Positions 1 through 54,699 of a stretch of 64,000 bases of DNA are shown piece after piece. Where the stretch lies: positions 39,485-103,484 of the forward strand of contig JAUCBJ010000276.1 of assembly GCA_032718475.1 (NCBI GenBank). Direction: 5' to 3'. This DNA is from Nemertoderma westbladi (lineage: Eukaryota; Animalia; Xenacoelomorpha). The position numbers and the translations under genes were made by a program. The first letter of the stretch is position 1. Each line of letters opens with the position of its first letter. A model generated the notes under the pieces. It worked only from the letters and a program-made list of their open reading frames with translations, was not told the DNA's origin and did not search any database.

Positions 1-3000
1 TCTAAGAAAACAGAGACAATATTATTGTGGTACCAGAGGTTCTTTGTAAATAATAGCCAGTCTAAGCAAACAGAGACAATATTATTGTGGTACCAGATGT
101 TCTTTGCAGATAATAGACAGTCTAAGAAAACAGAGACAATATTATTGTGGTACCAGAGGTTCTTTGTAGATAATAGCCAGTCTAAGCAAACAGAGACAAT
201 ATTATTGTGGTACCAGATGTTCTTTGTAGATAATAGCCAGTCTAAGCAAACAGAGACAATATTATTGTGGTACCAGGTGTTCTTTGTAGATAATAGCCAG
301 TCTAAGAAAACAGAGACAATATTATTGTGGTACCAGAGGTTCTTTGTAAATAATAGCCAGTCTAAGCAAACAGAGACAATATTATTGTGGTACCAGATGT
401 TCTTTGCAGATAATAGACAGTCTAAGAAAACAGAGACAATATTATTGTGGTACCAGAGGTTCTTTGTAGATAATAGCCAGTCTAAGCAAACAGAGACAAT
501 ATTATTGTGGTACCAGATGTTCTTTGTAGATAATAGCCAGTCTAAGCAAACAGAGACAATATTATTGTGGTACCAGGTGTTCTTTGTAGATAATAGCCAG
601 TCTAAGAAAACAGAGACAATATTATTGTGGTACCAGAGGTTCTTTGTAAATAATAGCCAGTCTAAGCAAACAGAGACAATATTATTGTGGTACCAGATGT
701 TCTTTGCAGATAATAGACAGTCTAAGAAAACAGAGACAATATTATTGTGGTACCAGAGGTTCTTTGTAGATAATAGCCAGTCTAAGCAAACAGAGATATT
801 ATTATTGTGGTACCAGAGGTTCTTTGTAGATAATAGCCAGTCTAAGCAAACAGAGACAATATTATTGTGGTACCAGAGGTTCTTTGTAGATAATAGCTAG
901 TCTAAGCAAACAGAGACAATATTATTGTGGTACAAGAGGTTCTTTGCAGATAATAGACAGTCTAAGAAAACAGAGACAATATTATTGTGGTACCAGAGGT
1001 TCTTTGTAGATAATAGCCAGTCTAAGCAAACAGAGACAATATTATTGTGGTACCAGATGTTCTTTGTAGATAATAGCCAGTCTAAGAAAACAGAGACAAT
1101 ATTATTGTGGTACCAGAGGTTCTTTGTAGATAATAGCCAGTCTAAGCAAACAGAGACAATATTATTGTGGTACCAGAGGTTCTTTGCAGATAATAGACAG
1201 TCTAAGAAAACAGAGACAATATTATTGTGGTACCAGAGGTTCTTTGTAGATAATAGCCAGTCTAAGCAAACAGAGACAATATTATTGTGGTACCAGATGT
1301 TCTTTGTAGATAATAGCCAGTCTAAGAAAACAGAGACAATATTATTGTGGTACCAGAGGTTCTTTGTAGATAATAGCCAGTCTAAGCAAACAGAGACATT
1401 ATTATTGTGGTACCAGAGGTTCTTTGTAGATAATAGCTAGTCTAAGCAAACAGAGACAATATTATTGTGGTACCAGAGGTTCTTTGTAGATAATAGCTAG
1501 TCTAAGCAAACAGAGACAATATTATTGTGGTACCAGAGGTTCTTTAAAGATAATAGCCAGTCTAAGCAAACAGAGACAATATTATTGTGGTACCAGAGGT
1601 TCTTTGCAGATAATAGACAGTCTAAGAAAACAGAGACAATATTATTGTGGTACCAGAGGTTCTTTGTAGATAATAGCCAGTCTAAGCAAACAGAGACAAT
1701 ATTATTGTGGTACCAGATGTTCTTTGCAGATAATAGACAGTCTAAGAAAACAGAGACAATATTATTGTGGTACCAGAGGTTCTTTGTAGATAATAGCCAG
1801 TCTAAGCAAACAGAGATAATATTATTGTGGTACCAGAGGTTCTTTGTAGATAATAGCTAGTCTAAGCAAACAGAGACAATATTATTGTGGTACCAGAGGT
1901 TCTTTGTAGATAATAGCTAGTCTAAGCAAACAGAGACAATATTATTGTGGTACCAGAGGTTCTTTGTAGATAATAGCCAGTCTAAGCAAACAGAGACAAT
2001 ATTATTGTGGTACCAGAGGTTCTTTGTAGATAATAGCCAGTCTAAGCAAACAGAGACAATATTATTGTGGTACTAAAGGTTCTTTGTAGATAATAGCCAG
2101 TCGAAGCAAACAGAGACAATATTATTGTGGTACCAGAGGTTCTTTGTAGATAATAGCTAGTCTAAGCAAACAGAGACAATATTATTGTGGTACCAGAGGT
2201 TCTTTGTAGATAATAGCCAGTCTAAGCAAACAGAGACAATATTATTGTGGTACCAGAGGTTCTTTGTAGATAATAGCCAGTCTAAGCAAACAGAGACAAT
2301 ATTATTGTGGTACTAAAGGTTCTTTGTAGATAATAGCCAGTCTAAGCAAACAGAGACAATATTATTGTGGTACCAGAGGTTCTTTGTAGATAATAGCTAG
2401 TCTAAGCAAACAGAGACAATATTATTGTGGTACCAGAGGTTCTTTGTAGATAATAGCCAGTCTAAGCAAACAGAGACAATATTATTGTGGTACCAGAGGT
2501 TCTTTGTAGATAATAGCCAGTCTAAGCAAACAGAGACAATATTATTGTGGTACCAGAGGTTCTTTGTAGATAATAGCCAGTCTAAGCAAACAGAGACAAT
2601 ATTATTGTGGTACCAGAGGTTCTTTGTAGATAATAGCTAGTCTAAGCAAACAGAGACAATATTATTGTGGTACCAGAGGTTCTTTGTAGATAATAGCTAG
2701 TCTAAGCAAACAGAGACAATATTATTGTGGTACCAGAGGTTCTTTGTAGATAATAGCCAGTCTAAGCAAACAGAGACAATATTATTGTGGTACCAGAGGT
2801 TCTTTGTAGATAATAGCTAGTCTAAGCAAACAGAGACAATATTATTGTGGTACCAGAGGTTCTTTGTAGATAATAGCCAGTCTAAGCAAACAGAGACAAT
2901 ATTATTGTGGTACCAGAGGTTCTTTGTAGATAATAGCCAGTCTAAGCAAACAGAGACAATATTATTGTGGTACCAGAGGTTCTTTGTAGATAATAGCCAG

Positions 3001-6000
3001 TCTAAGCAAACAGAGACAATATTATTGTGGTACCAGAGGTTCTTTGTAGATAATAGCCAGTCTAAGCAAACAGAGACAATATTATTGTGGTACCAGAGGT
3101 TCTTTGTAGATAATAGCCAGTCTAAGCAAACAGAGACAATATTATTGTGGTACCAGAGGTTCTTTGTAGATAATAGCCAGTCTAAGCAAACAGAGACAAT
3201 ATTATTGTGGTACCAGAGGTTCTTTGTAGATAATAGCCAGTCTAAGCAAACAGAGACAATATTATTGTGGTACCAGAGGTTCTTTGTAGATAATAGCCAG
3301 TCTAAGCAAACAGAGACAATATTATTGTGGTACCAGAGGTTCTTTGTAGATAATAGCCAGTCTAAGCAAACAGAGACAATATTATTGTGGTACCAGAGGT
3401 TCTTTGTAGATAATAGCTAGTCTAAGCAAACAGAGACAATATTATTGTGGTACCAGAGGTTCTTTGTAGATAATAGCCAGTCTAAGCAAACAGAGACAAT
3501 ATTATTGTGGTACCAGAGGTTCTTTGTAGATAATAGCCAGTCTAAGCAAACAGAGACAATATTATTGTGGTACCAGAGGTTCTTTGTAGATAATAGCCAG
3601 TCTAAGCAAACAGAGACAATATTATTGTGGTACCAGAGGTTCTTTGTAGATAATAGCCAGTCTAAGCAAACAGAGACAATATTATTGTGGTACCAGAGGT
3701 TCTTTGTAGATAATAGCTAGTCTAAGCAAACAGAGACAATATTATTGTGGTACCAGAGGTTCTTTGTAGATAATAGCCAGTCTAAGCAAACAGAGACAAT
3801 ATTATTGTGGTACCAGAGGTTCTTTGTAGATAATAGCCAGTCTAAGCAAACAGAGACAATATTATTGTGGTACCAGAGGTTCTTTGTAGATAATAGCCAG
3901 TCTAAGCAAACAGAGACAATATTATTGTGGTACCAGAGGTTCTTTGTAGATAATAGCTAGTCTAAGCAAACAGAGACAATATTATTGTGGTACCAGAGGT
4001 TCTTTGTAGATAATAGCCAGTCTAAGCAAACAGAGACAATATTATTGGGGTACCAGAGGTTCTTTGTAGATAATAGCCAGTCTAAGCAAACAGAGACAAT
4101 ATTATTGTGGTACCAGAGGTTCTTTGTAGATAATAGCTAGTCTAAGCAAACAGAGACAATATTATTGGGGTACCAGAGGTTCTTTGTAGATAATAGCCAG
4201 TCTAAGCAAACAGAGACAATATTATTGTGGTACCAGAGGTTCTTTGTAGATAATAGCCAGTCTAAGCAAACAGAGACAATATTATTGTGGTACTAAAGGT
4301 TCTTTGTAGATAATAGCCAGTCGAAGCAAACAGAGATAATATTATTGTGGTACCAGAGGTTCTTTGTAGATAATAGCTAGTCTAAGCAAACAGAGACAAT
4401 ATTATTGTGGTACCAGAGGTTCTTTGTAGATAATAGCCAGTCTAAGCAAACAGAGACAATATTATTGTGGTACCAGAGGTTCTTTGTAGATAATAGCTAG
4501 TCTAAGCAAACAGAGACAATATTATTGTGGTACCAGAGGTTCTTTGTAGATAATAGCCAGTCTAAGCAAACAGAGACAATATTATTGTGGTACCAGAGGT
4601 TCTTTGTAGATAATAGCCAGTCTAAGCAAACAGAGACAATATTATTGTGGTACCAGAGGTTCTTTGTAGATAATAGCTAGTCTAAGCAAACAGAGACAAT
4701 ATTATTGTGGTACCAGAGGTTCTTTGTAGATAATAGCCAGTCTAAGCAAACAGAGACAATATTATTGTGGTACAAGAGGTTCTTTGTAGATAATAGCTAG
4801 TCTAAGCAAACAGAGACAATATTATTGTGGTACTAAAGGTTCTTTGTAGATAATAGCTAGTCTAAGCAAACAGAGACAATATTATTGTGGTACTAAAGGT
4901 TCTTTGTAGATAATAGCCAGTCGAAGCAAACAGAGATAATATTATTGTGGTACCAGAGGTTCTTTGTAGATAATAGCTAGTCTAAGCAAACAGAGACAAT
5001 ATTATTGTGGTACTAAAGGTTCTTTGTAGATAATAGCCAGTCGAAGCAAACAGAGATAATATTATTGTGGTACCAGAGGTTCTTTGTAGATAATAGCCAG
5101 TCTAAGCAAACAGAGACAATATTATTGTGGTACTAAAGGTTCTTTGTAGATAATAGCTAGTCTAAGCAAACAGAGACAATATTATTGTGGTACTAAAGGT
5201 TCTTTGTAGATAATAGCCAGTCGAAGCAAACAGAGATAATATTATTGTGGTACCAGAGGTTCTTTGTAGATAATAGCCAATCTAAGCAAACAGAGACAAT
5301 ATTATTGTGGTACCAGAGGTTCTTTAAAGATAATAGCCAGTCGAAGCAAACAGAGACAATATTATTGTGGTACTAAAGGTTCTTTGTAGATAATAGCCAG
5401 TCGAAGCAAACAGAGATAATATTATTGTGGTACCAGAGGTTCTTTGTAGATAATAGCTAGTCTAAGCAAACAGAGACAATATTATTGTGGTACTAAAGGT
5501 TCTTTGTAGATAATAGCCAGTCTAAGCAAACAGAGACAATATTATTGTGGTACCAGAGGTTCTTTGTAGATAATAGCTAGTCTAAGCAAACAGAGACAAT
5601 ATTATTGTGGTACTAAAGGTTCTTTGTAGATAATAGCCAGTCGAAGCAAACAGAGACAATATTATTTTGGTACCAGAGGTTCTCTGTAGATAATAGCCAG
5701 TCGAAGCAAACAGAGATAATATTATTGTGGTACCAGAGGTTCTTTGTAGATAATAGCTAGTCTAAGCAAACAGAGACAATATTATTTTGGTACCAGATGT
5801 TCTCTGTAGATAATAGCCAGTCGAAGCAAACAGAGATAATATTATTGTGGTACCAGAGGTTCTTTGTAGATAATAGCTAGTCTAAGCAAACAGAGACAAT
5901 ATTATTTTGGTACCAGATGTTCTTTGTAGATAATAGCTAGTCTAAGCAAACAGAGACAATATTATTGTGGCACCAGAGGTTCTCTGTAGATAATAGCCAG

Positions 6001-9000
6001 TCGAAGCAAACAGAGATAATATTATTGTGGTACCAGAGGTTCTTTGTAGATAATAGCTAGTCTAAGCAAACAGAGACAATATTATTGTGGTACTAAAGGT
6101 TCTTTGTAGATAATAGCTAGTCTAAGCAAACAGAGACAATATTATTGTGGTACTAAAGGTTCTTTGTAGATAATAGCCAGTCGAAGCAAACAGAGATAAT
6201 ATTATTGTGGTACCAGAGGTTCTTTGTAGATAATAGCTAGTCTAAGCAAACAGAGACAATATTATTGTGGTACTAAAGGTTCTTTGTAGATAATAGCTAG
6301 TCTAAGCAAACAGAGACAATATTATTGTGGTACTAAAGGTTCTTTGTAGATAATAGCTAGTCTAAGCAAACAGAGACAATATTATTGTGGTACTAAAGGT
6401 TCTTTGTAGATAATAGCCAGTCGAAGCAAACAGAGATAATATTATTGTGGTACCAGAGGTTCTTTGTAGATAATAGCTAGTCTAAGCAAACAGAGACAAT
6501 ATTATTGTGGTACCAGAGGTTCTTTGTAGATAATAGCTAGTCTAAGCAAACAGAGACAATATTTTTGTGGTACTAAAGGTTCTTTGTAGATAATAGCCAG
6601 TCGAAGCAAACAGAGATAATATTATTGTGGTACCAGATGTTCTTTGTAGATAATAGCCAGTCTAAGCAAACAGAGACAATATTATTGTGGTACCAGAGGT
6701 TCTTTGTAGATAATAGCTAGTCTAAGCAAACAGAGACAATATTTTTGTGGTACTAAAGGTTCTTTGTAGATAATAGCCAGTCGAAGCAAACAGAGATAAT
6801 ATTATTGTGGTACCAGATGTTCTTTGTAGATAATAGCCAGTCTAAGCAAACAGAGACAATATTATTGTGGTACCAATGGTTCTTTGTAGATAATAGACAG
6901 TCTAAGCAAACAGAGACAATATTATTGTGGTACTAAAGGTTCTTTGTAGATAATAGCCAGTCGAAGCAAACAGAGATAATATTATTGTGGTACCAGAGGT
7001 TCTTTGTAGATAATAGCCAGTCGAAGCAAACAGAGACAATATTATTGTGGTACTAAAGGTTCTTTGTAGATAATAGCTAGTCTAAGCAAACAGAGACAAT
7101 ATTATTGTGGTACTAAAGGTTCTTTGTAGATAATAGCCAGTCGAAGCAAACAGAGATAATATTATTGTGGTACCAGATGTTCTTTGTAGATAATAGACAG
7201 TCTAAGCAAACAGAGACAATATTATTGTGGTACTAAAGGTTCTTTGTAGATAATAGCCAGTCGAAGCAAACAGAGATAATATTATTGTGGTACCAGAGGT
7301 TCTTTGTAGATAATAGCCAGTCGAAGCAAACAGAGATAATATTATTGTGGTACCAGAGGTTCTTTGTAGATAATAGCTAGTCTAAGCAAACAGAGACAAT
7401 ATTATTGTGGTACTAAAGGTTCTTTGTAGATAATAGCTAGTCTAAGCAAACAGAGACAATATTATTGTGGTACTAAAGGTTCTTTGTAGATAATAGCCAG
7501 TCGAAGCAAACAGAGATAATATTATTGTGGTACCAGATGTTCTTTGTAGATAATAGCTAGTCTAAGCAAACAGAGACAATATTATTGTGGTACTAAAGGT
7601 TCTTTGTAGATAATAGCCAGTCGAAGCAAACAGAGACAATATTATTGTGGTACTAAAGGTTCTTTGTAGATAATAGCTAGTCTAAGCAAACAGAGACAAT
7701 ATTATTGTGGTACTAAAGGTTCTTTGTAGATAATAGCCAGTCTAAGCAAACAGAGACAATATTATTGTGGTACCAGAGGTTCTTTGTAGATAATAGCTAG
7801 TCTAAGCAAACAGAGACAATATTATTGTGGTACTAAAGGTTCTTTGTAGATAATAGCCAGTCTAAGCAAACAGAGACAATATTATTGTGGTACCAGAGGT
7901 TCTTTGTAGATAATAGCTAGTCTAAGCAAACAGAGACAATATTATTGTGGTACTAAAGGTTCTTTGTAGATAATAGCTAGTCTAAGCAAACAGAGACAAT
8001 ATTATTGTGGTACTAAAGGTTCTTTGTAGATAATAGCCAGTCGAAGCAAACAGAGATAATATTATTGTGGTACCAGAGGTTCTTTGTAGATAATAGCAGT
8101 CTAAGCAAACAGAGACAATATTATTGGGGTACCAGAGGTTCTTTGTAGATAATAGCCAGTCTAAGCAAACAGAGACAATATTATTGTGGTACCAGAGGTT
8201 CTTTGTAAATAATAGCCCGTCTAAGAAAACAGAGACAATATTATTGTGGTACCAGAGGTTCTTTGTAGATAATAGCCAGTCTAAGCAAACAGAGACAATA
8301 TTATTGTGGTACCAGAGGTTCTTTGTAGATAATAGACAGTCTAAGCAAACAGAGACAATATTATTGTGTTACCAGAGGTTCTTTATATATAATAGCCAGT
8401 CTAAGCAAACATATACAATATTAACGTGGTACCAGAGGTTCTTTGTAAATAATACCCCGTCTAAGAAAACAGAGACAATATTATTGTGGTACCAGAGGTT
8501 CTTTGTAGATAATAGCCAGTCTAAGCAAACAGAGACAATATTATTGTGGTACCAGAGGTTCTTTGTAAATAATAGCCCGTCTAAGAAAACAGAGACAATA
8601 TTATTGTGGTACCAGAGGTTCTTTGTAGATAATAGCCAGTCTAAGCAAACAGAGACAATATTATTGTGGTACCAGAGGTTCTTTGTAGATAATAGACAGT
8701 CTAAGCAAACAGAGACAATATTATTGTGTTACCAGAGGTTCTTTATATATAATAGCCAGTCTAAGCAAACATATACAATATTATTGGGGTACCAGAGGTT
8801 CTTTGTAAATAATAGCCAGTTTAAGCAAACAGAGACAATATTATTGTGGTACCAGAGGTTCTTTGTAGATAATAGCCAGTCTAAGCAAACAGAGACAATA
8901 TTATTGTGGTACCAGAGGTTCTTTGTGAATAATAGCCAGTCTAAGCAAACAGAGACAATATTATTGTGGTACCAGAGGTTCTTTGTAGATAATAGCCAGT

Positions 9001-11854
9001 CTAAGCCAACAGAGACAATATTATTGTGGTACCAGAGGTTCTTTGTAGATAATAGCCAGTCTAAGCAAACAGAAATAATATCATTGTGGTACCAGAGGTT
9101 CTCTGTAGATAATAGACAGACCAAGCAAACAGAGACAATATTATTGTGGTACCAAAGGTTCTATGTAGATAACAGCCAGTCTAAGCAAACAGAGACAATA
9201 TTATTGGGGTACCAGAGGTTCTTTGTAGATAATAGCCAGTCGAAGCAAACAGAGATAATATTATTGTGGTACCAGAGGTTCTTTGTAGATAATAGCCAGT
9301 CGAAGCAAACAGAGACAATATTATTGTGGTACTAAAGGTTCTTTGTAGATAATAGCTAGTCTAAGCAAACAGAGACAATATTATTGTGGTACTAAAGGTT
9401 CTTTGTAGATAATAGCTAGTCTAAGCAAACAGAGACAATATTATTGTGGTACTAAAGGTTCTTTGTAGATAATAGCCAGTCGAAGCAAACAGAGATAATA
9501 TTATTGTGGTACCAGATGTTCTTTGTAGATAATAGACAGTCTAAGCAAACAGAGACAATATTATTGTGGTACTAAAGGTTCTTTGTAGATAATAGCCAGT
9601 CGAAGCAAACAGAGATAATATTATTGTGGTACCAGAGGTTCTTTGTAGATAATAGCCAGTCGAAGCAAACAGAGACAATATTATTGTGGTACTAAAGGTT
9701 CTTTGTAGATAATAGCCAGTCGAAGCAAACAGAGATAATATTATTGTGGTACCAGAGGTTCTTTGTAGATAATAGCCAGTCGAAGCAAACAGAGACAATA
9801 TTATTGTGGTACTAAAGGTTCTTTGTAGATAATAGCTAGTCTAAGCAAACAGAGACAATATTATTGTGGTACTAAAGGTTCTTTGTAGATAATAGCTAGT
9901 CTAAGCAAACAGAGACAATATTATTGTGGTACTAAAGGTTCTTTGTAGATAATAGCCAGTCTAAGCAAACAGAGACAATATTAACGTGGTACCAGAGGTT
10001 CTTTGTAAATAATACCCCGTCTAAGAAAACAGAGACAATATTATTGTGGTACCAGAGGTTCTTTGTAGATAATAGCCAGTCTAAGCAAACAGAGACAATA
10101 TTATTGTGGTACCAGAGGTTCTTTGTAAATAATAGCCCGTCTAAGAAAACAGAGACAATATTATTGTGGTACCAGAGGTTCTTTGTAGATAATAGCCAGT
10201 CTAAGCAAACAGAGACAATATTATTGTGGTACCAGAGGTTCTTTGTAGATAATAGACAGTCTAAGCAAACAGAGACAATATTATTGTGTTACCAGAGGTT
10301 CTTTATATATAATAGCCAGTCTAAGCAAACATATACAATATTATTGGGGTACCAGAGGTTCTTTGTAAATAATAGCCAGTTTAAGCAAACAGAGACAATA
10401 TTATTGTGGTACCAGAGGTTCTTTGTAGATAATAGCCAGTCTAAGCAAACAGAGACAATATTATTGTGGTACCAGAGGTTCTTTGTGAATAATAGCCAGT
10501 CTAAGCAAACAGAGACAATATTATTGTGGTACCAGAGGTTCTTTGTAGATAATAGCCAGTCTAAGCCAACAGAGACAATATTATTGTGGTACCAGAGGTT
10601 CTTTGTAGATAATAGCCAGTCTAAGCAAACAGAAATAATATCATTGTGGTACCAGAGGTTCTCTGTAGATAATAGACAGACCAAGCAAACAGAGACAATA
10701 TTATTGTGGTACCAAAGGTTCTATGTAGATAACAGCCAGTCTAAGCAAACAGAGACAATATTATTGGGGTACCAGAGGTTCTTTGTAGATAATAGACAGT
10801 CTAAGCAAACAGATACAATATTATTGTGGTACCAGAGGTTCTTTGTAGATAATAGCCAGTCTAAGCAAACAGATACAATATTATTGTGGTACCAGAGGTT
10901 CTTTGTAGATAATAGCAAATCTAAGCAAACAGAGACAATATTATTGTGGTACCAGATGTTCTTTGTAGATAATAATAGCCAATCTAAGCAAACAGATACA
11001 ATATTATTGTGGTACCAGAGGTTCTTTGTAAATAATAGCCAGTCTAAGCAAACAGAGACAATATTATTGTGGTACCAGAGGTTCTTTGTAAATAATAGAC
11101 AGTCTAAGCAAACAGAGACAATATTATTATAGAACCAGAGGTTCTTTGTAGATAATAGCCAGTCTAAGCAAACAGAGATAATATTATTGTGGAACCAGAG
11201 GTTCTTTGTAGATAATAGCCAGTCTAAGCAAACAGAGACAATATTATTGTGGTACAAGAGGTTGTTTGTAGATAATAGCCAGTCTAAGCAAACAGAGATA
11301 ATATTATTGTGGTACCAGATGTTGTTTGTAGATAATAACCAGTCTAAGAAAATAGAGACAATATTATTGTGGTACAAGAGGTTCTTTGTAGATAATAGCC
11401 AGTCTAAGCAAACAGAGATAATATTATTGTGGTAACAGATGTTCTTTGTAGATAATAGCCAGTCTAAGCAAACAGAGACAATATTATTGTGGAACCAGAG
11501 GCTCTTTGTAGATAATAGCCAGTCTAAGCAAACAGAGACAATATTATTGTGGAACCAGAGGCTCTTTGTAGATAATAGCCAGTCTAAGCAAACAGAGACA
11601 ATATTATTGTGGTACCAGAGGTTCTTTAAAGATAATAGACAGTCTAAGAAAACAGAGACAATATTATTGTGATACAAGAGGTTCTTTGTAGATAATAGCC
11701 AATCTAAGCAAACAAAGATAATATTATTGTGGTACCAGATGTTCTTTGTAGATAATAGACAGTCTAAGCAAACAGAGACAATATTATTGTAGTACCAGAG
11801 GTTCTTTAAAGATAATAGCCAGTCTAAGCAAACAGAGACAATATTATTGTGGTA

Positions 11855-12088
11855 GCAAAAGCAAACAGTCGGCCGAAGCCGGAGGCGACCCGAAGGCTCC
11901 TCTTTCGATAGCTGCTACCCGAGGGTAGGGGTGGTCGCTACTCCTATCCCAAGATTTGCTCCCAGTTATTTAACTGGTACTCATTTTATCGACCCCAGTG
12001 GATGAAAGGCTGAGTGGACCCTGGCGGGATGAACCTACAACCAATAGATTGCAGGCCCGGCGCTCAACCAACTGAGCTACCCCGCCGT
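11855..12088 (-). mobile_element. tRNA-derived SINE inserted in the satellite, 14-bp TSD
   Basis: The minus strand starts GGCGGGGTAGCTCAGTTGGTTGAGCG (tRNA-like 5' end and A box), followed by a B-box-like GGTTCATCCC and a central CTCAGCCTTTCATCC...GGGGTCGATAAAATGAGTACCAG block typical of metazoan tRNA-SINEs. It ends in a short TTTGC-type tail. ATATTATTGTGGTA is duplicated at 11841-11854 and 12089-12102. Confidence 0.9.
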
Positions 12089-34322: not shown

Positions 34323-34795
34323 TTAACTCTATTTTATTTTTATTTGTTTTTTATTGAATTTTTTTTCCCTTATGAAATGCAATTATAATCCACAAAATTT
34401 TAAAATTTATCAATTTTATATGTGTTAGTTTGCCTGCGTTGGTGCATGGACCTGACCCGTCGTGTGTTATCGATTGCTTGTGTGATGAGAATAAAAAATG
34501 TCAGCAAGTTCTAAATTGGTAAAATTCTGAATCTAGTATAAACTGAACCCTCACTCTCCTCTCCCCCCCCCCCCCCCCCCCCCAAGTTACTCTCCCCCAT
34601 GTCCACAACACCCCCACACTCCACTATTTCCAGCATCTGGATACTAGCACTACTAGCTATGCTATTGCTATAGTATCCAGTGCAATGTTTTTTTCAATGT
34701 TAGTATGTTAGTTATATCATTTACTTTATGTATGTGCATTGTACATATTTTATGGAAGTAATGGAAAGGAAATTAAAAATAAATTGAAATTGAAA
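32949..34795 (+). mobile_element. 5'-truncated non-LTR retrotransposon, CR1/L2 group (Crack/Daphne-like)
   Basis: RT motifs KIAKVIP..K, NYRPISLLP, QFGFR, IDLKKAFDTI, GLPQGGTLSPFLF.IYIND, FADDT and YKFLG are present. The 3'UTR has a hairpin CTGGATACTA...TAGTATCCAG (34637-34680) and an AATAAA plus (TTGAAA)2 tail. TCTTT lies on both sides (32944-32948, 34796-34800) as a short TSD or microhomology. Confidence 0.93.
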
Positions 34796-37700: not shown

Positions 37701-40700
37701 GCAAACAGAGACAATATTATTGTGGTACCAGGTGTTCTTTGTAGATAATAGCCAGTCTAAGCAAACAGAGACAATATTATTGTGGTACCAGGTGTTCTTT
37801 GTAGATAATAGCCAGTCTAAGCAAACAGAGACAATGTTATTGTGGTACCAGAGGTTCTTTGTAGATAATAGCCAGTCTAAGCAAACAGAGACAATATTAT
37901 TGTGGTACCAGAGGTTCTTTGTAGATAATAGCCAGTCTAAGCAAACAGAGACAATATTATTGTGGTACCAGAGGTTCTTTGTAGATAATAGCCAATCTAA
38001 GCAAACAGAGACAATATTATTGTGGTACCAGAGGTTCATTGTAGATACTAGCCAGTCTAAGCAAACAGAGACAATATTATTGTGGTACCAGATGTTCTTT
38101 GTAGATAATAGCCAGTCTAAGCAAACAGAGACAATATTATTGTGGTACCAAAGGTTCTTTAAAGATAATAGCCAGTCTAAGCAAACAGAGACATTATTAT
38201 TGTGGTACCAAAGGTTCTTTGTAGATAATAGCCAGTCTAAGCAAACAGAGACAATATTATTCTTTTACTAAAGGTTCTTTAAAGATAATAGCCAGTCTAA
38301 GCAAACAGAGACATTATTATTGAGTTACCGAAGGTTCTTTGTAGATAATAGCCAGTCTAAGCAAACAGAGGCAATATTATTGTGGTACTAAAGGTTCTTT
38401 GTAGATAATAGCCAGTCTAAGCAAACATAGACAATATTATTGTGGTACCAGATGTTCTTTGTAGATAATAGCCAGTCTAAGCAAACATAGACAATATTAT
38501 TGTTGTATCAGAGGTCCTTTGTAGATAATAGCCGGTCTAAGCAAACAGAGACAATATTATTGTGGTACCACAGGTTCTTTGTAGATACTAGCCAGTCTAA
38601 GCAAACAGAGACAATATTATTGTGGTACCAGATGTTCTCTGTAGATAATAGCCAGTCTAAGCAAACAGAGACAATATTATTGTGGTACCAGGTGTTCTTT
38701 GTAGATAATAGCCAGTCTAAGCAAACAGAGACAATATTATTGTGGTACCAGAGGTTCTTTGTAGATAATAGCCAGTCTAAGCAAACAGAGACAATATTAT
38801 TGTGGTACCAGAGGTTCTTTGTAGATAATAGCCAGTCTAAGCAAACAGAGACAATATTATTGTGGTACCAGAGGTTCTTTGTAGATAATAGCCAGTCTAA
38901 GCAAACAGAGACAATATTATTGTGGTACCAGGTGTTCTTTGTAGATAATAGCCAGTCTAAGCAAACAGAGACAATATTATTGTGGTACCAGAGGTTCTTT
39001 GTAGATAATAGCCAGTCTAAGCAAACAGAGACAATATTATTGTGGTACCAGGTGTTCTTTGTAGATAATAGCCAGTCTAAGCAAACAGAGACAATATTAT
39101 TGTGGTACCAGAGGTTCTTTGTAGATAATAGCCAATCTAAGCAAACAGAGACAATATTATTGTGGTACCAGGTGTTCTTTGTAGATAATAGCCAGTCTAA
39201 GCAAACAGAGACAATATTATTGTGGTACCAGGTGTTCTTTGTAGATAATAGCCAGTCTAAGCAAACAGAGACAATGTTATTGTGGTACCAGAGGTTCTTT
39301 GTAGATAATAGCCAGTCTAAGCAAACAGAGACAATATTATTGTGGTACCAGAGGTTCTTTGTAGATAATAGCCAGTCTAAGCAAACAGAGACAATATTAT
39401 TGTGGTACCAGAGGTTCTTTGTAGATAATAGCCAGTCTAAGCAAACAGAGACAATATTATTGTGGTACTAAAGGTTCTTTGTAGATAATAGCCAGTCTAA
39501 GCAAACAGAGACAATATTATTGTGGTACCAGAGGTTCTTTGTAGATAATAGCCAGTCTAAGCAAACAGAGACAATATTATTGTGGTACCAGGTGTTCTTT
39601 GTAGATAATAGCCAGTCTAAGCAAACAGAGACAATATTATTGTGGTACCAGGTGTTCTTTGTAGATAATAGCCAGTCTAAGCAAACAGAGACAATATTAT
39701 TGTGGTACCAGAGGTTCTTTGTAGATAATAGCCAATCTAAGCAAACAGAGACAATATTATTGTGGTACCAGGTGTTCTTTGTAGATAATAGCCAGTCTAA
39801 GCAAACAGAGACAATATTATTGTGGTACCAGGTGTTCTTTGTAGATAATAGCCAGTCTAAGCAAACAGAGACAATGTTATTGTGGTACCAGAGGTTCTTT
39901 GTAGATAATAGCCAGTCTAAGCAAACAGAGACAATATTATTGTGGTACCAGAGGTTCTTTGTAGATAATAGCCAGTCTAAGCAAACAGAGACAATATTAT
40001 TGTGGTACCAGAGGTTCTTTGTAGATAATAGCCAGTCTAAGCAAACAGAGACAATATTATTGTGGTACTAAAGGTTCTTTGTAGATAATAGCCAGTCTAA
40101 GCAAACAGAGACAATATTATTGTGGTACCAGAGGTTCTTTGTAGATAATAGCCAGTCTAAGCAAACAGAGACAATATTATTGTGGTACCAGGTGTTCTTT
40201 GTAGATAATAGCCAGTCTAAGCAAACAGAGACAATATTATTGTGGTACCAGGTGTTCTTTGTAGATAATAGCCAGTCTAAGCAAACAGAGACAATATTAT
40301 TGTGGTACCAGGTGTTCTTTGTAGATAATAGCTAGTCTAAGCAAACAGAGACAATATTATTGTGGTACCAGGTGTTCTTTATAGATAATAGCCAGTCTAA
40401 GCAAACAGAGACAATATTATTGTGGTACCAGAGGTTCTTTGTAGATAATAGCCAGTCTAAGCAAACAGAGACAATATTATTGTGGTACCAGGTGTTCTTT
40501 GTAGATAATAGCCAGTCTAAGCAAACAGAGACAATATTATTGTGGTACCAGGTGTTCTTTGTAGATAATAGCCAGTCTAAGCAAACAGAGACAATATTAT
40601 TGTGGTACCAGGTGTTCTTTGTAGATAATAGCCAGTCTAAGCAAACAGAGACAATATTATTGTGGTACTAAAGGTTCTTTGTAGATAATAGCCAGTCTAA

Positions 40701-43700
40701 GCAAACAGAGACAATATTATTGTGGTACCAGGTGTTCTTTGTAGATAATAGCCAGTCTAAGCAAACAGAGACAATATTATTGTGGTACCAGAGGTTCTTT
40801 GTAGATAATAGCCAATCTAAGCAAACAGAGACAATATTATTGTGGTACCAGGTGTTCTTTATAGATAATAGCCAGTCTAAGCAAACAGAGACAATATTAT
40901 TGTGGTACCCGAGGTTCTTTGTAGATAATAGCCAGTCTAAGCAAACAGAGACAATATTATTGTGGTACCAGAGGTTCTTTGTAGATAATAGCCAGTCTAA
41001 GCAAACAGAGACAATATTATTGAGGTACCAGGTGTTCTTTGTAGATAATAGCCAGTCTAAGCAAACAGAGACAATATTATTGTGGTACCAGAGGTTCTTT
41101 GTAGATAATAGCCAATCTAAGCAAACAGAGACAATATTATTGTGGTACCAGGTGTTCTTTGTAGATAATAGCCAGTCTAAGCAAACAGAGACAATATTAT
41201 TGTGGTACCAGGTGTTCTTTGTAGATAATAGCCAGTCTAAGCAAACAGAGACAATAGTATTGTGGTACAAGAGGTTCTTTGTAGATAATAGCCATTCTAA
41301 GCAAACAGAGACAATATTATTGTGGTACCAGGTGTTCTTTGTAGATAATAGCCAGTCTAAGCAAACAGAGACAATATTATTGTGGTACCAGAGGTTCTTT
41401 GTAGATAATAGCCAGTCTAAGCAAACAGAGACAATATTATTGTGGTACCAAAGGTTCTTTAAAGATAATAGCCAGTCTAAGCAAACAGAGACATTATTAT
41501 TGTGGTACCAAAGGTTCTTTGTAGATAATAGCCAGTCTAAGCAAACAGAGACAATATTATTGTGGTACCAGAGGTTCTTTGTAGATAATAGCCAATCTAA
41601 GCAAACAGAGACAATATTATTGTGGTACCAGGTGTTCTTTGTAGATAATAGCCAGTCTAAGCAAACAATTATTGTGGTACCAAAGGTTCTTTGTAGATAA
41701 TAGCCAGTCTAAGCAAACAGAGACAATATTATTGTGGTACCAGAGGTTCTTTGTAGATAATAGCCAATCTAAGCAAACAGAGACAATATTATTGTGGTAC
41801 CAGGTGTTCTTTGTAGATAATAGCCAGTCTAAGCAAACAGAGACAATATTATTGTGGTACCAGAGGTTCTTTGTAGATAATAGCCAATCTAAGCAAACAG
41901 AGACAATATTATTGTGGTACCAGAGGTTCTTTGTAGATAATAGCCAGTCTAAGCAAACAGAGACAATATTATTGTTATACCAGAGTTTCTTTGTAGATAA
42001 TAGCCAGTCTAAGCAAACAGAGACAATATTATTGTGGTACCAAAGGTTCTTTAAAGATAATAGCCAGTCTAAGCAAACAGAGACATTATTATTGTGGTAC
42101 CAGAGGTTCTTTGTAGATAATAGCCAGTCTAAGCAAACAGAGACAATATTATTGTGGTACCAGATGTTCTTTGTAGATAATAGCCAGTCTAAGCAAACAG
42201 AGACAATATTATTGTGGTACCAGATGTTCTTTGTAGATAATAGCCAGTCTAAGCAAACAGAGACAATATTATTGTGGTACCAGATGTTATTTGTAGATAA
42301 TAGCCAGTCTAAGCAAACAGAGACAATATTATTGTGGTACCAGATGTTCTTTGTAGATAATAGCCAGTCTAAGCAAACAGAGACAATATTATTGTTATAC
42401 CAGAGGTTCTTTGTAGATAATAGCCAGTCTAAGCAAACAGAGACAATATTATTGTGGTACCAGATGTTCTTTGTAGATAATAGCCAGTCTAAGCAAACAG
42501 AGACAATATTATTGTGGTACCAGAGGTTCTTTGTAGATAATAGCCAGTCTAAGCAAACAGAGACAATATTATTGTGGTACCAGAGGTTCATTGTAGATAC
42601 TAGCCAGTCTAAGCAAACAGAGACAATATTATTGTGGTACCAAAGGTTCTTTAAAGATAATAGCCAGTCTAAGCAAACAGAGACATTATTATTGTGGTAC
42701 CAAAGGTTCTTTGTAGATAATAGCCAGTCTAAGCAAACAGAGACAATATTATTGTGGTATTAAAGGTTCTTTAAAGATAATAGCCAGTCTAAGCAAACAG
42801 AGACATTATTATTGTGGTACCAAAGGTTCTTTGTAGATAATAGCCAGTCTAAGCAAACAGAGACAATATTATTGTGGTACTAAAGGTTCTTTGTAGATAA
42901 TAGCCAGTCTAAGCAAACATAGACAATATTATTGTGGTACCAGATGTTCTTTGTAGATAATAGCCAGTCTAAGCAAACATAGACAATATTATTGTTGTAT
43001 CAGAGGTCCTTTGTAGATAATAGCCGGTCTAAGAAAAAGGAGAAATATAATTATTGTGGTACCAGAGGTTCTTTGTAGATAATAGCCAGTCTAAGCAAAC
43101 AGAGACAATATTATTGTGGTACCAGGTGTTCTTTGTAGATAATAGCCAGTCTAAGCAAACAGAGACAATATTATTGTGGTACCAGAGGTTCTTTGTAGAT
43201 AATAGCCAGTCTAAGCAAACATAGACAATATTATTGTGGTACCAGATGTTCTTTGTAGATAATAGCCAGTCTAAGCAAACAGAGACAATATTATTGTGGT
43301 ACCAGAGGTTCTTTGTAGATAATAGCCGGTCTAAGCAAACAGAGAAAATATTATTGTGGTACCAGAGGTTCTTTGTAGATAATAGCAGTCTAAGCAAACA
43401 GAGACAATATTATTGTGGTACCAGAGGTTCTTTGCAAATAATAGCAGTCTAAGCAAACAGAGACAATATTATTGTGGTACCAGAGGTTCTTTGTAGATAA
43501 TAGCCAGTCTAAGCAAACAGAGACAATATTATTGTGGTACCAGAGGTTCTTTGTAGATACTAGCCAGTCTAAGCAAACAGAGACAATATTATTGTGGTAC
43601 CAGAGGTTCTTTGTAGATAATAGCCAGTCTAAGCAAACAGAGACAATATTATTGTGGTACCAGAGGTTCTTTGTAGATAATAGCCAATCTAAGCAAACAG

Positions 43701-46700
43701 AGACAATATTATTGTGGTACCAGAGGTTCTTTGTAGATAATAGCCAGTCTAAGCAAACAGAGACAATATTATTGTTATACCAGAGGTTCTTTGTAGATAA
43801 TAGCCAGTCTAAGCAAACAGAGACAAAATTATTGTGGTACCAGAGGTTCTTTGTAGATAATAGCCAGTCTAAGCAAACAGAGAAAATATTATTGTGGCAC
43901 CAGAGGTTCTTTGTAAATAATAGCCGGTCTAAGCAAACAGAGACAATATTATTGTGGTACCAGAGGTTCTTTGTAAATAATAACCAGTCTAAGCAAACAG
44001 AGACAATATTATTGTGGTACCAGAGGTTCTTTGTAAATAATAACCAGTCTAAGCAAACAGAGACAATATTATTGTGGTACCAGATGTTCTTTGTAGATAA
44101 TAGACAGTCTAAGTAAACAGAGACAATATTATTGTGGTACCAGAGGTTCTTTGTAGATAATAGCCAGTCTAAGCAAACATAGACAATATTATTGTGGTAC
44201 ATGAGGTTCTTTGTAGAAAATAGACAGTCTAAGCAAACAGAGACAATATTATTGTGGTACCAGATGTTCTTTGTAGATAATAGACAGTCTAAGCAAACAG
44301 AGACAATATTATTGTGGTACCAGAGGTTCTTTGTAGATAATAGCCAGTCTAAGCAAACATAGACAATATTATTGTGGTACCAGATGTTCTTTGTAGATAA
44401 TTGCCAGTCTAAGCAAACACAGACAATATTATTGTGGTACCAGAGGTTCTTTGTAGATAATAGCCAGTCTAAGCAAACGGAGACAATATTATTGTGGTAC
44501 TAAAGGTTCTTTGTAGATAATAGCTAGTCTAAGCAAACAGAGACAATATTATTGTGGTACTAAAGGTTCTTTGTAGATAATAGCCAGTCTAAGCAAACAG
44601 AGACAATATTATTGTGGTACCAGAGGTTCTTTGTAGATAATAGCCAGTCTAAGCAAACAGAGACAATATTATTGTGGTACTAAAGGTTCTTTGTAGATAA
44701 TAGACAGTCTAAGCAAACAGAGACAATATTATTGTGGAACCAGATGTTCTTTGTAGATAATAGCCAGTCTAAGCAAACAGAGATAATATTATTGTGGAAC
44801 CAGAGGTTCTTTGCAAATAATAGCCAATCTAAGCAAACATAGACAATATTATTGTGGTACCAGATGTTCTTTGTAGATAATAGCCAGTCTAAGCAAACAG
44901 AGACAATATTATTGTGGTACCAGAGGTTCTTTGTAGATAATAACCGGTCTAAGCAAACAGAGACAATATTATTGTGGTACCAGAGGTTCTTTGTAGATAA
45001 TAACCGGTCTAAGCAAAGAGAGACAATATTATTGTGGTACCAGAGGTTCTTTGTAGATAATAGCCAGTCTAAGCAAACAGAGACAATATTATTGTGGTAC
45101 CAGAGGTTCTTTGTAGATAATAACCGGTCTAAGCAAACAGAGACAATATTATTGTGGTACCAGAGGTTCTTTGTAGATAATAACCGGTCTAAGCAAAGAG
45201 AGACAATATTATTGTGGTACCAGAGGTTCTTTGTAGATAATAGCCAGTCTAAGCAAACAGAGACAATATTATTGTGGTACCAGAGGTTCTTTGTAGATAA
45301 TAGCCAGTCTAAGCAAACAGAGACAATATTATTGTGGTACCAGAGGTTCTTTGTAGATAATAACCGGTCTAAGCAAAGAGAGACAATATTATTGTCGTAC
45401 CAGAGGTTCTTTGTAGATAATAGCCAGTCTAAGCAAACATAGACAATATTATTGTGGAACCAGAGGTTCTTTGCAAATAATAGCCAATCTAAGCAAACAT
45501 AGACAATATTATTGTGGTACCAGATGTTCTTTGTAGATAATAACCGGTCTAAGCAAAGAGAGACAATATTATTGTGGTACCAGAGGTTCTTTGTAGATAA
45601 TAACCGGTCTAAGCAAAGAGAGACAATATTATTGTCGTACCAGAGGTTCTTTGTAGATAATAACCGGTCTAAGCAAACAGAGACAATATTATTGTGGTAC
45701 CAGAGGTTCTTTGTAGATAATAACCGGTCTAAGCAAAGAGAGACAATATTATTGTCGTACCAGAGGTTCTTTGTAGATAATAGCCAGTCTAAGCAAACAT
45801 AGACAATATTATTGTGGAACCAGAGGTTCTTTGCAAATAATAGCCAATCTAAGCAAACATAGACAATATTATTGTGGTACCAGATGTTCTTTGTAGATAA
45901 TAGCCAGTCTAAGCAAACAGAGACAATATTATTGTGGTACCAGAGGTTCTTTGTAGATAATAGCCAGTCTAAGCAAACAGAGACAATATTATTGTCGTAC
46001 CAGAGGTTCTTTGTAGATAATAGCCAGTCTAAGCAAACAGAGACAATATTATTGTGGTACCAGAGGTTCTTTGTAGATAATAACCGGTCTAAGCAAAGAG
46101 AGACAATATTATTGTCGTACCAGAGGTTCTTTGTAGATAATAACCGGTCTAAGCAAAGAGAGACAATATTATTGTCGTACCAGAGGTTCTTTGTAGATAA
46201 TAACCGGTCTAAGCAAACAGAGACAATATTATTGTGGTACCAGAGGTTCTTTGTAGATAATAACCGGTCTAAGCAAACATAGACAATATTATTGTGGTAC
46301 CAGATGTTCTTTGTAGATAATAGCCAGTCTAAGCAAACAGAGACAATATTATTGTGGTACCAGAGGTTCTTTGTAGATAATAGCCAGTCTAAGCAAACAG
46401 AGACAATATTATTGTCGTACCAGAGGTTCTTTGTAGATAATAGCCAGTCTAAGCAAACAGAGACAATATTATTGTGGTACCAGAGGTTCTTTGTAGATAA
46501 TAACCGGTCTAAGCAAAGAGAGACAATATTATTGTGGTACCAGAGGTTCTTTGTAGATAATAACCGGTCTAAGCAAAGAGAGACAATATTATTGTCGTAC
46601 CAGAGGTTCTTTGTAGATAATAACCGGTCTAAGCAAACAGAGACAATATTATTGTGGTACCAGAGGTTCTTTGTAGATAATAACCGGTCTAAGCAAAGAG

Positions 46701-49161
46701 AGACAATATTATTGTCGTACCAGAGGTTCTTTGTAGATAATAGCCAGTCTAAGCAAACATAGACAATATTATTGTGGAACCAGAGGTTCTTTGCAAATAA
46801 TAGCCAATCTAAGCAAACATAGACAATATTATTGTGGTACCAGATGTTCTTTGTAGATAATAGCCAGTCTAAGCAAACAGAGACAATATTATTGTGGTAC
46901 CAGAGGTTCTTTGTAGATAATAGCCAGTCTAAGCAAACAGAGACAATATTATTGTCGTACCAGAGGTTCTTTGTAGATAATAGCCAGTCTAAGCAAACAT
47001 AGACAATATTATTGTGGTACCAGATGTTCTTTGTAGATAATAGCCAGTCTAAGCAAACAGAGACAATATTATTGTGGTACCAGAGGTTCTTTGTAGATAA
47101 TAGCCAGTCTAAGCAAACAGAGACAATATTATTGTCGTACCAGAGGTTCTTTGTAGATAATAGCCAGTCTAAGCAAACATAGACAATATTATTGTGGTAC
47201 CAGATGTTCTTTGTAGATAATAGCCAGTCTAAGCAAACAGAGACAATATTATTGTGGTACCAGAGGTTCTTTGTAGATAATAACCGGTCTAAGCAAAGAG
47301 AGACAATATTATTGTCGTACCAGAGGTTCTTTGTAGATAATAGCCAGTCTAAGCAAACAGAGACAATATTATTGTGGTACCAGAGGTTCTTTGTAGATAA
47401 TAACCGGTCTAAGCAAAGAGAGACAATATTATTGTCGTACCAGAGGTTCTTTGTAGATAATAACCGGTCTAAGCAAAGAGAGACAATATTATTGTCGTAC
47501 CAGAGGTTCTTTGTAGATAATAACCGGTCTAAGCAAACAGAGACAATATTATTGTGGTACCAGAGGTTCTTTGTAGATAATAACCGGTCTAAGCAAACAT
47601 AGACAATATTATTGTGGTACCAGATGTTCTTTGTAGATAATAGCCAGTCTAAGCAAACAGAGACAATATTATTGTGGTACCAGAGGTTCTTTGTAGATAA
47701 TAGCCAGTCTAAGCAAACAGAGACAATATTATTGTCGTACCAGAGGTTCTTTGTAGATAATAGCCAGTCTAAGCAAACAGAGACAATATTATTGTGGTAC
47801 CAGAGGTTCTTTGTAGATAATAACCGGTCTAAGCAAAGAGAGACAATATTATTGTGGTACCAGAGGTTCTTTGTAGATAATAACCGGTCTAAGCAAAGAG
47901 AGACAATATTATTGTCGTACCAGAGGTTCTTTGTAGATAATAACCGGTCTAAGCAAACAGAGACAATATTATTGTGGTACCAGAGGTTCTTTGTAGATAA
48001 TAACCGGTCTAAGCAAAGAGAGACAATATTATTGTCGTACCAGAGGTTCTTTGTAGATAATAGCCAGTCTAAGCAAACATAGACAATATTATTGTGGAAC
48101 CAGAGGTTCTTTGCAAATAATAGCCAATCTAAGCAAACATAGACAATATTATTGTGGTACCAGATGTTCTTTGTAGATAATAGCCAGTCTAAGCAAACAG
48201 AGACAATATTATTGTGGTACCAGAGGTTCTTTGTAGATAATAGCCAGTCTAAGCAAACAGAGACAATATTATTGTCGTACCAGAGGTTCTTTGTAGATAA
48301 TAGCCAGTCTAAGCAAACATAGACAATATTATTGTGGTACCAGATGTTCTTTGTAGATAATAGCCAGTCTAAGCAAACAGAGACAATATTATTGTGGTAC
48401 CAGAGGTTCTTTGTAGATAATAACCGGTCTAAGCAAAGAGAGACAATATTATTGTGGTACCAGATGTTCTTTGTAAATAATAGCCAGTCTAAGCAAACAG
48501 AGACAATATTATTGTGGTGCCAGAGGTTCTTTGTAGATAATAGCCAGTCTAAGCAAACAGAGACAATATTATTGTGGTACCAGAGGTTCTTTGCAAATAA
48601 TAGCAGTCTAAGCAAACAGAGACAATATTATTGTGGTACCAGAGGTTCTTTGTAGATAATAGCCAGTCTAAGCAAACAGAGACAATATTATTGTGGTACC
48701 AGAGGTTCTTTGTAGATAATAGACAGTCTAAGCAAACAGAGACAATATTATTGTGGTACCAGAGGTTCTTTGTAGATAATAGCCAGTCTAAGCAAACAGA
48801 GACAATATTATTGTGGTACCAGAGGTTCTTTGTAGATAATAGACAGTCTAAGCAAACAGAGACAATATTATTGTGGTACCAGATGTTCTTTGTAGATAAT
48901 AGCCAGTCTAAGCAAACAGAGATAATATTATTGTGGAACCAGAGGTTCTTTGCAGATAATAGCCAGTCTAAGCAAACGGAGATAATATTATTGTGGAACC
49001 AGAGGTTCTTTGTAGATAATAGCCAGTCTAAGCAAACAGAGACAATATTATTGTGGTACCAGATGTTCTTTGTAGATAATAGCCAGTCTAAGCAAACAGA
49101 GACAATATTATTGTGGTACCAGAGGTTCTTTGTAGATAATAGCCAGTCTAAGCAAACAGAG

Positions 49162-49221
49162 ACAATATTATTGTGGTACCAGAGGTTCTTTGTAGATAAT
49201 AGCCAGTCTAAGCAAACAGAG
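49162..49221 (+). CDS. Candidate exon A = terminal satellite monomer (60 nt TILLWYQRFFVDNSQSKQTE, or a 26-nt micro-exon 49196-49221)
   Basis: The array ends at GAG|gtaaga, a strong donor, in phase 0 of the only open + frame of the monomer. The last monomer is perfect consensus. An internal acceptor ttctttgtag| at 49194-49195 would give a 26-nt exon in the same frame. The true 5' end cannot be determined from this window. Confidence 0.55.
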
Positions 49222-49363
49222 GTAAGAGAGAAGGCAAACATTATTTCTTATCAACTATATTTCGAATATTACACATCGAATCGTTCGCAACATTTATATT
49301 CAATAACTAGATAAAAATTATATGATGTTAGACAACCACGACTTTAGAGGGATTGTAATATTA

Positions 49364-49687
49364 ATATTAAAACAATAAAATAGGACATATTTTTATAAAA
49401 TTTATTACTTAGACTTACCTTTTCGGCGGACAAAATGTCCTATATTTTTCGTAGTTTATGGGATAGCCTATTTCGTGCAATACTTACCGGAACCTGTAGT
49501 TACTGTATGGTTTGGTGTAATTTTTCTTGTGGTAGTTGGGTTGGGTTATGTAGCACTAAAATCTATTTGGTATTTTGTTTTTTGATGGGCCTTAGTGCCT
49601 GAGTACTAACAGTGGCCCAAGTGGCCCTAAATGCTAGGTAGTATCTGAGGGAATAAGACCCCATGTCCTATTTTATTGTTTTAATAT
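49364..49687. mobile_element. MITE / non-autonomous DNA transposon
   Basis: Perfect 25-bp inverted repeat ATATTAAAACAATAAAATAGGACAT (49364-49388) / ATGTCCTATTTTATTGTTTTAATAT (49663-49687) around about 275 bp of non-coding DNA. The ends are compatible with a TA or TTAA target site; the superfamily is not determined. Confidence 0.75.
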
Positions 49688-54681: not shown

Positions 54682-54699
54682 GTGAGTCAAATGTCCGGG

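What the first reader, a model, noticed from the sequence alone, without database searches (positions are those of the whole stretch)
1..49230. A satellite of at least 49 kb whose monomer looks like a coding exon and ends exactly on a splice donor
Seen: about 785 copies of a 60-mer end to the base at GAG|gtaaga. Read from that end, the monomer is AG|ACAATA...ACAGAG|gt, 20 stop-free codons in phase 0-0, the same phase as every downstream exon, and it splices in frame into them. Inference: the satellite is a head-to-tail concatemer of one whole 60-nt exon, or of 34 nt of acceptor plus a 26-nt micro-exon, inside a gene whose other exons are mostly intact. A precise exon concatemer could come from slippage on the AG/CAGAG microhomology followed by unequal exchange. 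More speculatively it could come from rolling-circle copying of a back-spliced circular exon. I do not know whether this has been described.
Basis: partly seen in the sequence, partly recalled or inferred. Interest (0 to 1): 0.85.

Follow-up and report, generated by a model that had tools for sequence, protein, structure and literature searches.

The report
Giant repeat ending at splice donor
A 60-base unit is repeated about 786 times over at least 49 kb and stops exactly at a splice-donor signal of a predicted membrane-protein gene; it is likely an intron end plus one short exon copied over and over, of which only the last copy would be spliced in, which would make it a huge case of a repeat type known from lancelets rather than a coding exon chain.

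Summary
Observation confirmed: 786 monomer starts, 767 units of 60 nt, ending sharply at 49221 before GTAAGA; 0 of 785 inner junctions are followed by GT. The array is not coding: 198 of 767 units carry an in-frame stop, 15 shift the frame, a SINE and a LINE sit inside, and there is no synonymous bias. The open frame is weak evidence (18% of shuffles). The downstream exons likely encode a LAPTM4/DUF4728-like four-pass protein that can start at ATG 49814, so the terminal exon may be 5' UTR. Best reading (0.45): a giant acceptor-type 'mirage' whose unit is an intron end plus a whole short exon without its donor. That exon is either 39 nt from an overlooked CAG (phase 0) or 26 nt from TAG; only the last copy would be spliced in. 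Block duplications point to stepwise unequal exchange. A purely exonic unit (0.22) is not excluded; a circular-RNA origin is unlikely (0.04). The left end, spliced RNA and orthologues were not obtainable. Unchecked earlier notes list 14 other junction arrays in this genome.

The parts
1..49221 (+). Tandem array of a 60-nt unit, 786 monomer starts, open-ended on the left; non-coding
49162..49221 (+). Last unit, identical to the commonest variant; the only one followed by a donor
49183..49221 (+). Candidate 39-nt exon after the CAG acceptor, phase 0-0 (predicted); 21 nt to previous AG, 5 of 10 pyrimidines
49196..49221 (+). Candidate 26-nt exon after the TAG acceptor (predicted); 11 nt to previous AG, 6 of 10 pyrimidines
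49222..49810 (+). Predicted 589-nt GT-AG intron; donor GAG|GTAAGA scores 7 of 9
49811..49885 (+). Predicted exon, 25 codons, with ATG at 49814 (candidate start); donor 6 of 9
53549..53743 (+). Predicted exon, 65 codons, putative TM1 and TM2; donor 9 of 9
58595..58759 (+). Predicted exon, 55 codons, putative TM3; Atlas lead to DUF4728/DUF7027
63697..64000 (+). Predicted exon, open to the window end, putative TM4 and tail with PPGY and PPPY
11855..12088 (-). SINE-like insert in one monomer, with unit positions 4-17 (14 nt) repeated on both sides
   Evidence: read from the sequence; ARAGORN finds no intact tRNA
32949..34795 (+). 5'-truncated LINE inserted in one monomer, 5-nt duplication, RVT_1 domain
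   Evidence: E 1.2e-35

Best explanation
The array is likely a giant splice-acceptor 'mirage': a 60-nt piece made of a predicted intron end plus one whole short exon (39 nt after CAG, or 26 nt after TAG) but not its donor, likely amplified in place by slippage and then unequal exchange, so that about 785 copies would be intronic and only the last copy, the one shown to be followed by GT, would be spliced in. Shown: the sharp end at a donor-like site, no GT after any inner copy, decay of the reading frame, block duplications, inserted elements. Inferred: that the gene is expressed, which acceptor is used, that exon definition picks the last copy, and that units reaching past the donor would be purged, which makes 'ends at the donor' the outer limit of tolerated breakpoints. 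The host is likely a LAPTM4/DUF4728-like four-pass membrane protein; the short exon is either 5' UTR or a short N-terminal extension.
For: Only the last of 786 units is followed by GT, and no consensus-monomer GT scores above 5 of 9. Two in-unit YAG acceptors are intact in 646 and 595 of 767 units; the CAG has 21 nt to the previous AG, inside the 16-59 nt range of the gene's four acceptors, and gives an in-frame exon. No coding constraint: distinct changes seen are 15 of 31 possible synonymous, 76 of 137 missense, 9 of 12 nonsense; third codon positions are not more variable. Stepwise growth: 33 consecutive identical unit types repeated 51 units away, against at most 5 in 20 shuffles. 41% of the downstream 14.8 kb is unrelated tandem arrays, so local sequence is amplified readily here. 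Amphioxus BflGb6 shows the same intron-end plus exon-start unit with normal splicing (PMC3087553).
Against: The left end was not seen, so the unit's origin is not shown. Both in-unit acceptors are mediocre (5 and 6 of 10 pyrimidines against 6-8 for the gene's own; several AGs lie close together). The presumed intronic part is also stop-free in frame, which happens by chance in 56% (39-nt model) or 39% (26-nt model) of shuffles, a mild point for a fully exonic unit. An end exactly on the donor needs a roughly 1-in-30-to-40 breakpoint (my estimate). No significant loss of AG sites among copies (permutation p 0.10 by copies, 0.06 by haplotypes). Gene identity is a lead only: no Pfam hit to the family, and the Atlas gave the exon at 53549 unrelated weak hits.
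Confidence: 0.45

Rival explanations
1. The unit is purely exonic (one whole 60-nt exon, or the last 60 nt of a longer exon), amplified by DNA slippage and unequal exchange. The gene would then be dead, or rescued by splicing to an in-unit acceptor of the last copy (losing 7 codons in frame), or through the unit's AGGT as an intron gained by tandem duplication.
For: All 20 codons are open in the frame that joins the next exon, about 1.8 to 2.5 times likelier than under the acceptor models. The unit holds AGGT at positions 22-25, the proto-splice site of the tandem-duplication model of intron gain (PMC3443670).
Against: The whole-exon form needs both breakpoints exact, with only 2 nt of visible microhomology (inference). 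The AGGT donor scores 5 of 9, its acceptor is a GAG 2 nt after a CAG, and that G is the most mutated base (211 of 767). The four downstream exons show no stop, so the gene does not look dead. The monomer peptide has no significant similarity to the other exons (2209 of 5000 shuffles score as high).
Confidence: 0.22
2. The unit comes from a non-coding first exon or the transcription-start region; the array lies upstream of the gene, transcription starts in the last copies, and the 589-nt intron is an ordinary 5' UTR intron just before the start codon.
For: Counting from ATG 49814, hydrophobic peaks at 72-88 and 150-166 and PY motifs at 209 and 229 match the 226-aa LAPTM4B-24 layout (TM2 72-88, TM4 152-168 after subtracting 91 from the positions in PMC5161753), so no upstream coding exon is needed. 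The consensus unit has no ATG.
Against: The exact end at the donor is still unexplained. TM1 is weak (1.21) and TM3 lies at 92-108 rather than 109-125. The open in-frame monomer would be chance (18%). Promoter function was not tested.
Confidence: 0.17
3. The array is an unrelated satellite that happens to end on a donor-like sequence.
For: Four other tandem arrays with no evident exon link lie in the gene's introns. Many arrays per genome give many chances.
Against: GTAAG occurs at 0.13% of flank positions. The site is on the gene's strand, is the best donor before the next acceptor, and is in frame. No copy of the monomer longer than 11 nt lies elsewhere in the window.
Confidence: 0.1
4. A back-spliced 60-nt circular exon was reverse-transcribed as a rolling-circle concatemer and recombined into its own locus, seeding the array.
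For: It would explain an end exact to the base at the donor and the lack of GT in the unit. LINE reverse transcriptases are present in this genome. Circular RNAs do give retrocopies in mouse and human (PMC4897178).
Against: Those retrocopies are multi-exon pseudogenes inserted into the genome; no in-place concatemer is described in the text read. A 60-nt single-exon circle is very small for back-splicing (recalled). The present array was shaped by block duplication. It needs the whole-exon model first, which is unproven.
Confidence: 0.04

Closest known systems
Amphioxus 'mirage' minisatellites (globins BflGb6 and BflGb9, Adh3, troponin C, PGBD5). PMC3087553: abstract and section 16 read; PMC3902484: passages read
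   Same: Tandem copies of a gene's own exon-intron border in place; unit of 10-160 bp; the acceptor type (BflGb6) is intron end plus exon start; reported not to disturb splicing. In lancelet PGBD5 a 60-bp repeat abuts a 5' splice site.
   Different: At least 786 copies against 2-7 in the globin and PGBD5 cases read; the unit would hold a complete exon and stop exactly before the donor; splicing not shown here.
Human junction-spanning VNTRs (F7 intron 7, IFI6/6-16, CBS, LMNB2, PDGF). PMC1557585: abstract and passages read
   Same: Repeated splice-site sequence tolerated because one copy is chosen.
   Different: Those are donor-type with the first copy real and 5-25 copies; here no unit has a donor and the last copy would be real.
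Intron gain by tandem genomic duplication of an AGGT-containing exonic segment. PMC3443670: passages read
   Same: The unit contains AGGT; an exonic duplication could become an intron.
   Different: The sites here are weak, the G is the most mutated base, and the scale is hundreds of copies.
circRNA-derived pseudogenes. PMC4897178: part 1 of 2 of the text read (main text)
   Same: An exon-end to exon-start junction in genomic DNA would be the shared signature.
   Different: Known cases are multi-exon retrocopies, not long in-place arrays; the exon-start side is unproven here.
LAPTM4 / DUF4728 (tetraspanin-pasiflora) proteins, for the host gene. PMC5161753 and bioRxiv 10.1101/2024.04.13.589362: passages read
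   Same: Similar spacing of TM2 and TM4, short N-terminal tail from ATG 49814, C-terminal PY motifs; Atlas lead to DUF4728/DUF7027.
   Different: TM1 weak, TM3 offset, no Pfam or sequence hit; membership not established.

Membership tests
Mirage (junction-spanning tandem repeat) | Head-to-tail tandem repeat contiguous with an exon of the host gene | tested here: met
   Array abuts the donor at 49222 of a predicted gene; the gene itself is a prediction
Mirage (junction-spanning tandem repeat) | Unit spans a real exon-intron boundary | tested here: inconclusive
   Two acceptor candidates of moderate strength inside the unit; use not shown
Mirage (junction-spanning tandem repeat) | mRNA uses the terminal copy and is otherwise normal | tested here: inconclusive
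   No contig of 3 runs lay on either stretch tried
Mirage (junction-spanning tandem repeat) | Concerted evolution and unequal exchange within the cluster | tested here: met
   Block duplications and regional variants; mean 1.2-3.2 differences from the last unit per 3-kb bin
Mirage (junction-spanning tandem repeat) | Unit specific to its locus | not testable with these tools
   No genome held; no second copy in the window
Coding exonic VNTR | Array keeps one open frame under purifying selection | tested here: not met
   198 of 767 units with stops, 15 frame-shifting units, longest open run 21 units, no synonymous bias
Whole-exon concatemer or circRNA-derived copy | Unit position 1 is preceded by a true acceptor at the array's left end | not testable with these tools
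   Left end outside the window; no genome
Whole-exon concatemer or circRNA-derived copy | Peptide is single-copy coding sequence in orthologues | tested here: inconclusive
   No orthologue found for two neighbouring exons
LAPTM4 / DUF4728 host protein | Four TM segments with short N-tail and C-terminal PY motifs | tested here: inconclusive
   Three clear peaks (2.0-2.6), TM1 weak, PPGY and PPPY present
LAPTM4 / DUF4728 host protein | Profile match to Mtp, DUF4728 or DUF7027 | tested here: inconclusive
   Single exons give no Pfam hit; Atlas scores 0.79-0.85 for clusters where 12-16% of members carry the family; the full-length product was not scanned

The most novel reading that the evidence does not exclude
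The satellite is a precise concatemer of one whole 60-nt exon, seeded by rolling-circle reverse transcription of a back-spliced circular RNA and written back into its own gene, then enlarged to over 49 kb by unequal exchange: a route from a splicing product to satellite DNA. A DNA-only whole-exon concatemer is likelier (about 0.12) but less striking.
Probability: 0.04. Interest if true: 0.85.

Novelty: new variant of a known kind. Interest (0 to 1): 0.33.

Why it matters
If the best reading holds, it is the limiting case of a mirage: the whole exon is copied about 786 times and only the donor tells the real copy apart. That makes it a clean natural test of exon definition against 3' splice-site scanning across a 49-kb-plus intron, and of whether selection shapes where such arrays end. 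By itself it is one more member of a type that seems common in this genome (unchecked notes); the genome-wide pattern matters more than this locus. An RNA-templated origin would be a new way to make satellite DNA, but nothing here favours it.

Tried and rejected
Whole genome: none held, so no left end and no dispersal test. RNA: no RNA holder listed (3 runs of one study, kind guessed, best share 0.38, not located); 0 contigs from 3 of 3 runs lay on 49132-49955 or 53320-54080; these blanks say nothing about expression. Homologues: exon 53549 gave 0 of 8 candidates and 2 spurious repeat-protein hits among 1.84 billion representatives; exon 58595 gave 0 of 9; PDB none; Pfam no hit above cut-off for 5 pieces or the last exon. 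The Atlas search of exon 53549 gave scattered 7TM-like leads at or below 0.87, 1 of 10 agreeing, so a GPCR reading was dropped. Monomer peptide as an internal repeat of exon 53549: rejected. Selection against AG sites among copies: not significant, largely G/C-to-A/T mutability. Special DNA fold of the dimer: z = -0.33. Monomer motif in metagenomes: 0. No look-alike stretches in earlier notes. Literature searches for an exon-concatemer satellite listed none; the library lacks most subscription papers, so this does not show it is undescribed. No supplements were opened.
Full report
What is there. Bases 1-49221 are one tandem array of a 60-nt unit. It is already running at base 1, so its left end is unseen. 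A fuzzy parse found 786 monomer starts: 767 units of 60 nt, 17 units of 52-66 nt and two long records holding inserts; 206 distinct sequences. The last unit equals the commonest variant (102 copies) and is followed by GTAAGA. None of the 785 inner junctions is followed by GT. Against the recalled donor consensus MAG|GTRAGT the site scores 7 of 9, within the 6-9 of the gene's other three donors; it is the best donor before the acceptor at 49810; consensus-monomer GTs score 3-5; only 2 of 3697 GT sites in the array reach 7, both in the LINE insert. GTAAG occurs at 0.13% of 7464 flank positions.

The array is real-looking, old enough to decay, and not coding. It holds a SINE-like insert with a 14-nt duplication (read) and a truncated LINE with RVT_1. 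198 of 767 units have an in-frame stop, 15 records shift the frame, and the longest run of open units is 21; the last run is 10 units. Distinct changes cover 15 of 31 possible synonymous, 76 of 137 missense and 9 of 12 nonsense changes, and third positions are not more variable. The open consensus frame is weak evidence of coding ancestry: 18% of shuffles are open in a named frame, 48% in any of three. Runs of up to 33 identical consecutive unit types recur 51 units apart, against at most 5 in 20 shuffles, and variants are regional. So the present array grew by repeated block duplication; this says nothing on the first duplication.

The host gene. Four predicted exons (49811-49885, 53549-53743, 58595-58759, 63697 onward) are stop-free and join in phase 0. 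From ATG 49814 they give 245 open codons to the window end, with hydrophobic peaks at 72-88, 92-108 and 150-166, weaker ones at 31-47 and 54-70, and PPGY and PPPY at 209 and 229. LAPTM4B-24 has 226 aa, C-terminal PY motifs and, by subtracting 91 from the positions in PMC5161753 (passages), TMs at 26-42, 72-88, 109-125 and 152-168. TM2 and TM4 fit, TM1 is weak, TM3 is off. The Atlas gave exon 58595 clusters with DUF4728 (13% of members, score 0.85) and DUF7027 (16%, 0.83), below its 0.9 line; exon 53549 gave scattered leads. DUF4728 proteins are placed with LAPTM4 in a four-pass family (bioRxiv 10.1101/2024.04.13.589362, passages). No Pfam, PDB or sequence hit confirmed this. The lead matters because the protein may need nothing upstream of 49814: the terminal exon could be 5' UTR, and the phase argument then loses its force.

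Which part of the unit is exon. The unit has eight AG dinucleotides. The gene's four acceptors have 16-59 nt and 6-8 of 10. The head-to-tail junction itself is a poor acceptor (2 nt, 4 of 10), so a 60-nt exon could only be entered at the unseen left end. The two YAGs are intact in 646 and 595 of 767 units. Loss of AG among copies is not significant (p 0.10 and 0.06).

Mechanism. Most likely (0.45) a duplication took an intron end and a whole short exon but stopped before the GT; slippage and unequal exchange then expanded it. Every copy offers an acceptor, only the last offers a donor, so exon definition (described in PMC1557585, passages) would pick the last copy and leave the rest in one giant intron. 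A unit reaching past the donor would make hundreds of complete cassette exons and would probably be purged, so the donor is the edge of the tolerated range; landing exactly on it is a roughly 1-in-30-to-40 event (inference). That 41% of the downstream 14.8 kb is other tandem arrays shows how readily local sequence is amplified here. Rivals: a purely exonic unit with rescue, intron gain at AGGT (PMC3443670, passages) or gene loss (0.22); a first-exon or start-site unit (0.17); chance (0.10); a circular-RNA seed (0.04). The stop-free presumed intron part favours the exonic rival only about twofold (56% and 39% by chance).

What could not be shown. No genome is held, so the left end and dispersal are open. 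No RNA holder was listed and nothing lay on the two stretches tried. No orthologue was found. All statements on splicing are therefore inferred.

Comparison with the known. Amphioxus mirages are tandem copies of exon-intron borders, 10-160 bp, including an acceptor type, reported not to disturb splicing (PMC3087553 section 16; PMC3902484 passages). Human F7 and similar VNTRs are donor types with 5-25 copies. This array works like an acceptor-type mirage; membership is not proven because boundary use was not shown. It differs in size and in carrying the whole exon to the base. Retrocopies of circular RNAs are known (PMC4897178, main text), but no in-place concatemer appears in the text read. 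Four searches listed no paper on a whole-exon satellite, in a library that lacks most subscription journals. Three look-ups of earlier AI notes (24 rows shown) named 14 distinct giant junction arrays in this genome, 7 donor-type and 7 acceptor-type. They are unchecked and not evidence, but they led me to the mirage papers and raised my prior for the acceptor model. One note suggests an acoel host; I did not test that.

Verdict. A real, striking but probably ordinary-for-this-genome array: new variant of a known kind, interest 0.33. The exciting reading (RNA-templated exon concatemer) is not excluded but has about 4% support; the left end of the array and one cDNA would settle it.

Noticed in passing
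window 49960-50683, 50722-53310, 54084-54327, 58817-62505: Tandem arrays of 21, 26, 25 and 38 nt in all three downstream introns, 41% of the 14.8 kb after the main array; none evidently exon-derived.
   Followed up: partly
window 54616-57634: Two reverse-transcriptase-like open frames; the one at 56270-57634 appears nested in the LINE that starts near 54616 (RVT_1 shown for 55312-55671, the second not scanned in its own frame).
   Followed up: partly
window 59271-59910 and 61184-61804: A duplicated block, 87% identical; the end of the second copy looks like a blend with the 38-nt repeat, possibly a consensus-polishing artefact.
   Followed up: partly
window 11855-12088: SINE-like insert on the minus strand with a tRNA-like head (A-box-like motif, recalled) and a 14-nt target duplication; usable as a marker for dating the array.
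   Followed up: partly
window 1-49221: Consensus-identical units cluster at both ends of the visible array (39 in the first 5 kb, 39 in the last 15 kb, 0 in 30-35 kb); linked variants such as GT-to-AA at unit positions 31-32 fill the middle.
   Followed up: partly
unit positions 1-13 and 14-19: The unit starts with a 6-bp inverted repeat and holds a GGTACC palindrome that is itself duplicated in three 66-nt units; overall fold is not above chance.
   Followed up: partly
window about 49365-49390 and 49663-49690: Two arms of an inverted repeat inside the 589-nt intron, seen by eye; possibly a MITE remnant.
   Followed up: no
window about 63519-63529: An AG-GT bounded 11-nt stretch before the last exon; including it would shift the frame, so it was left out of the model.
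   Followed up: no
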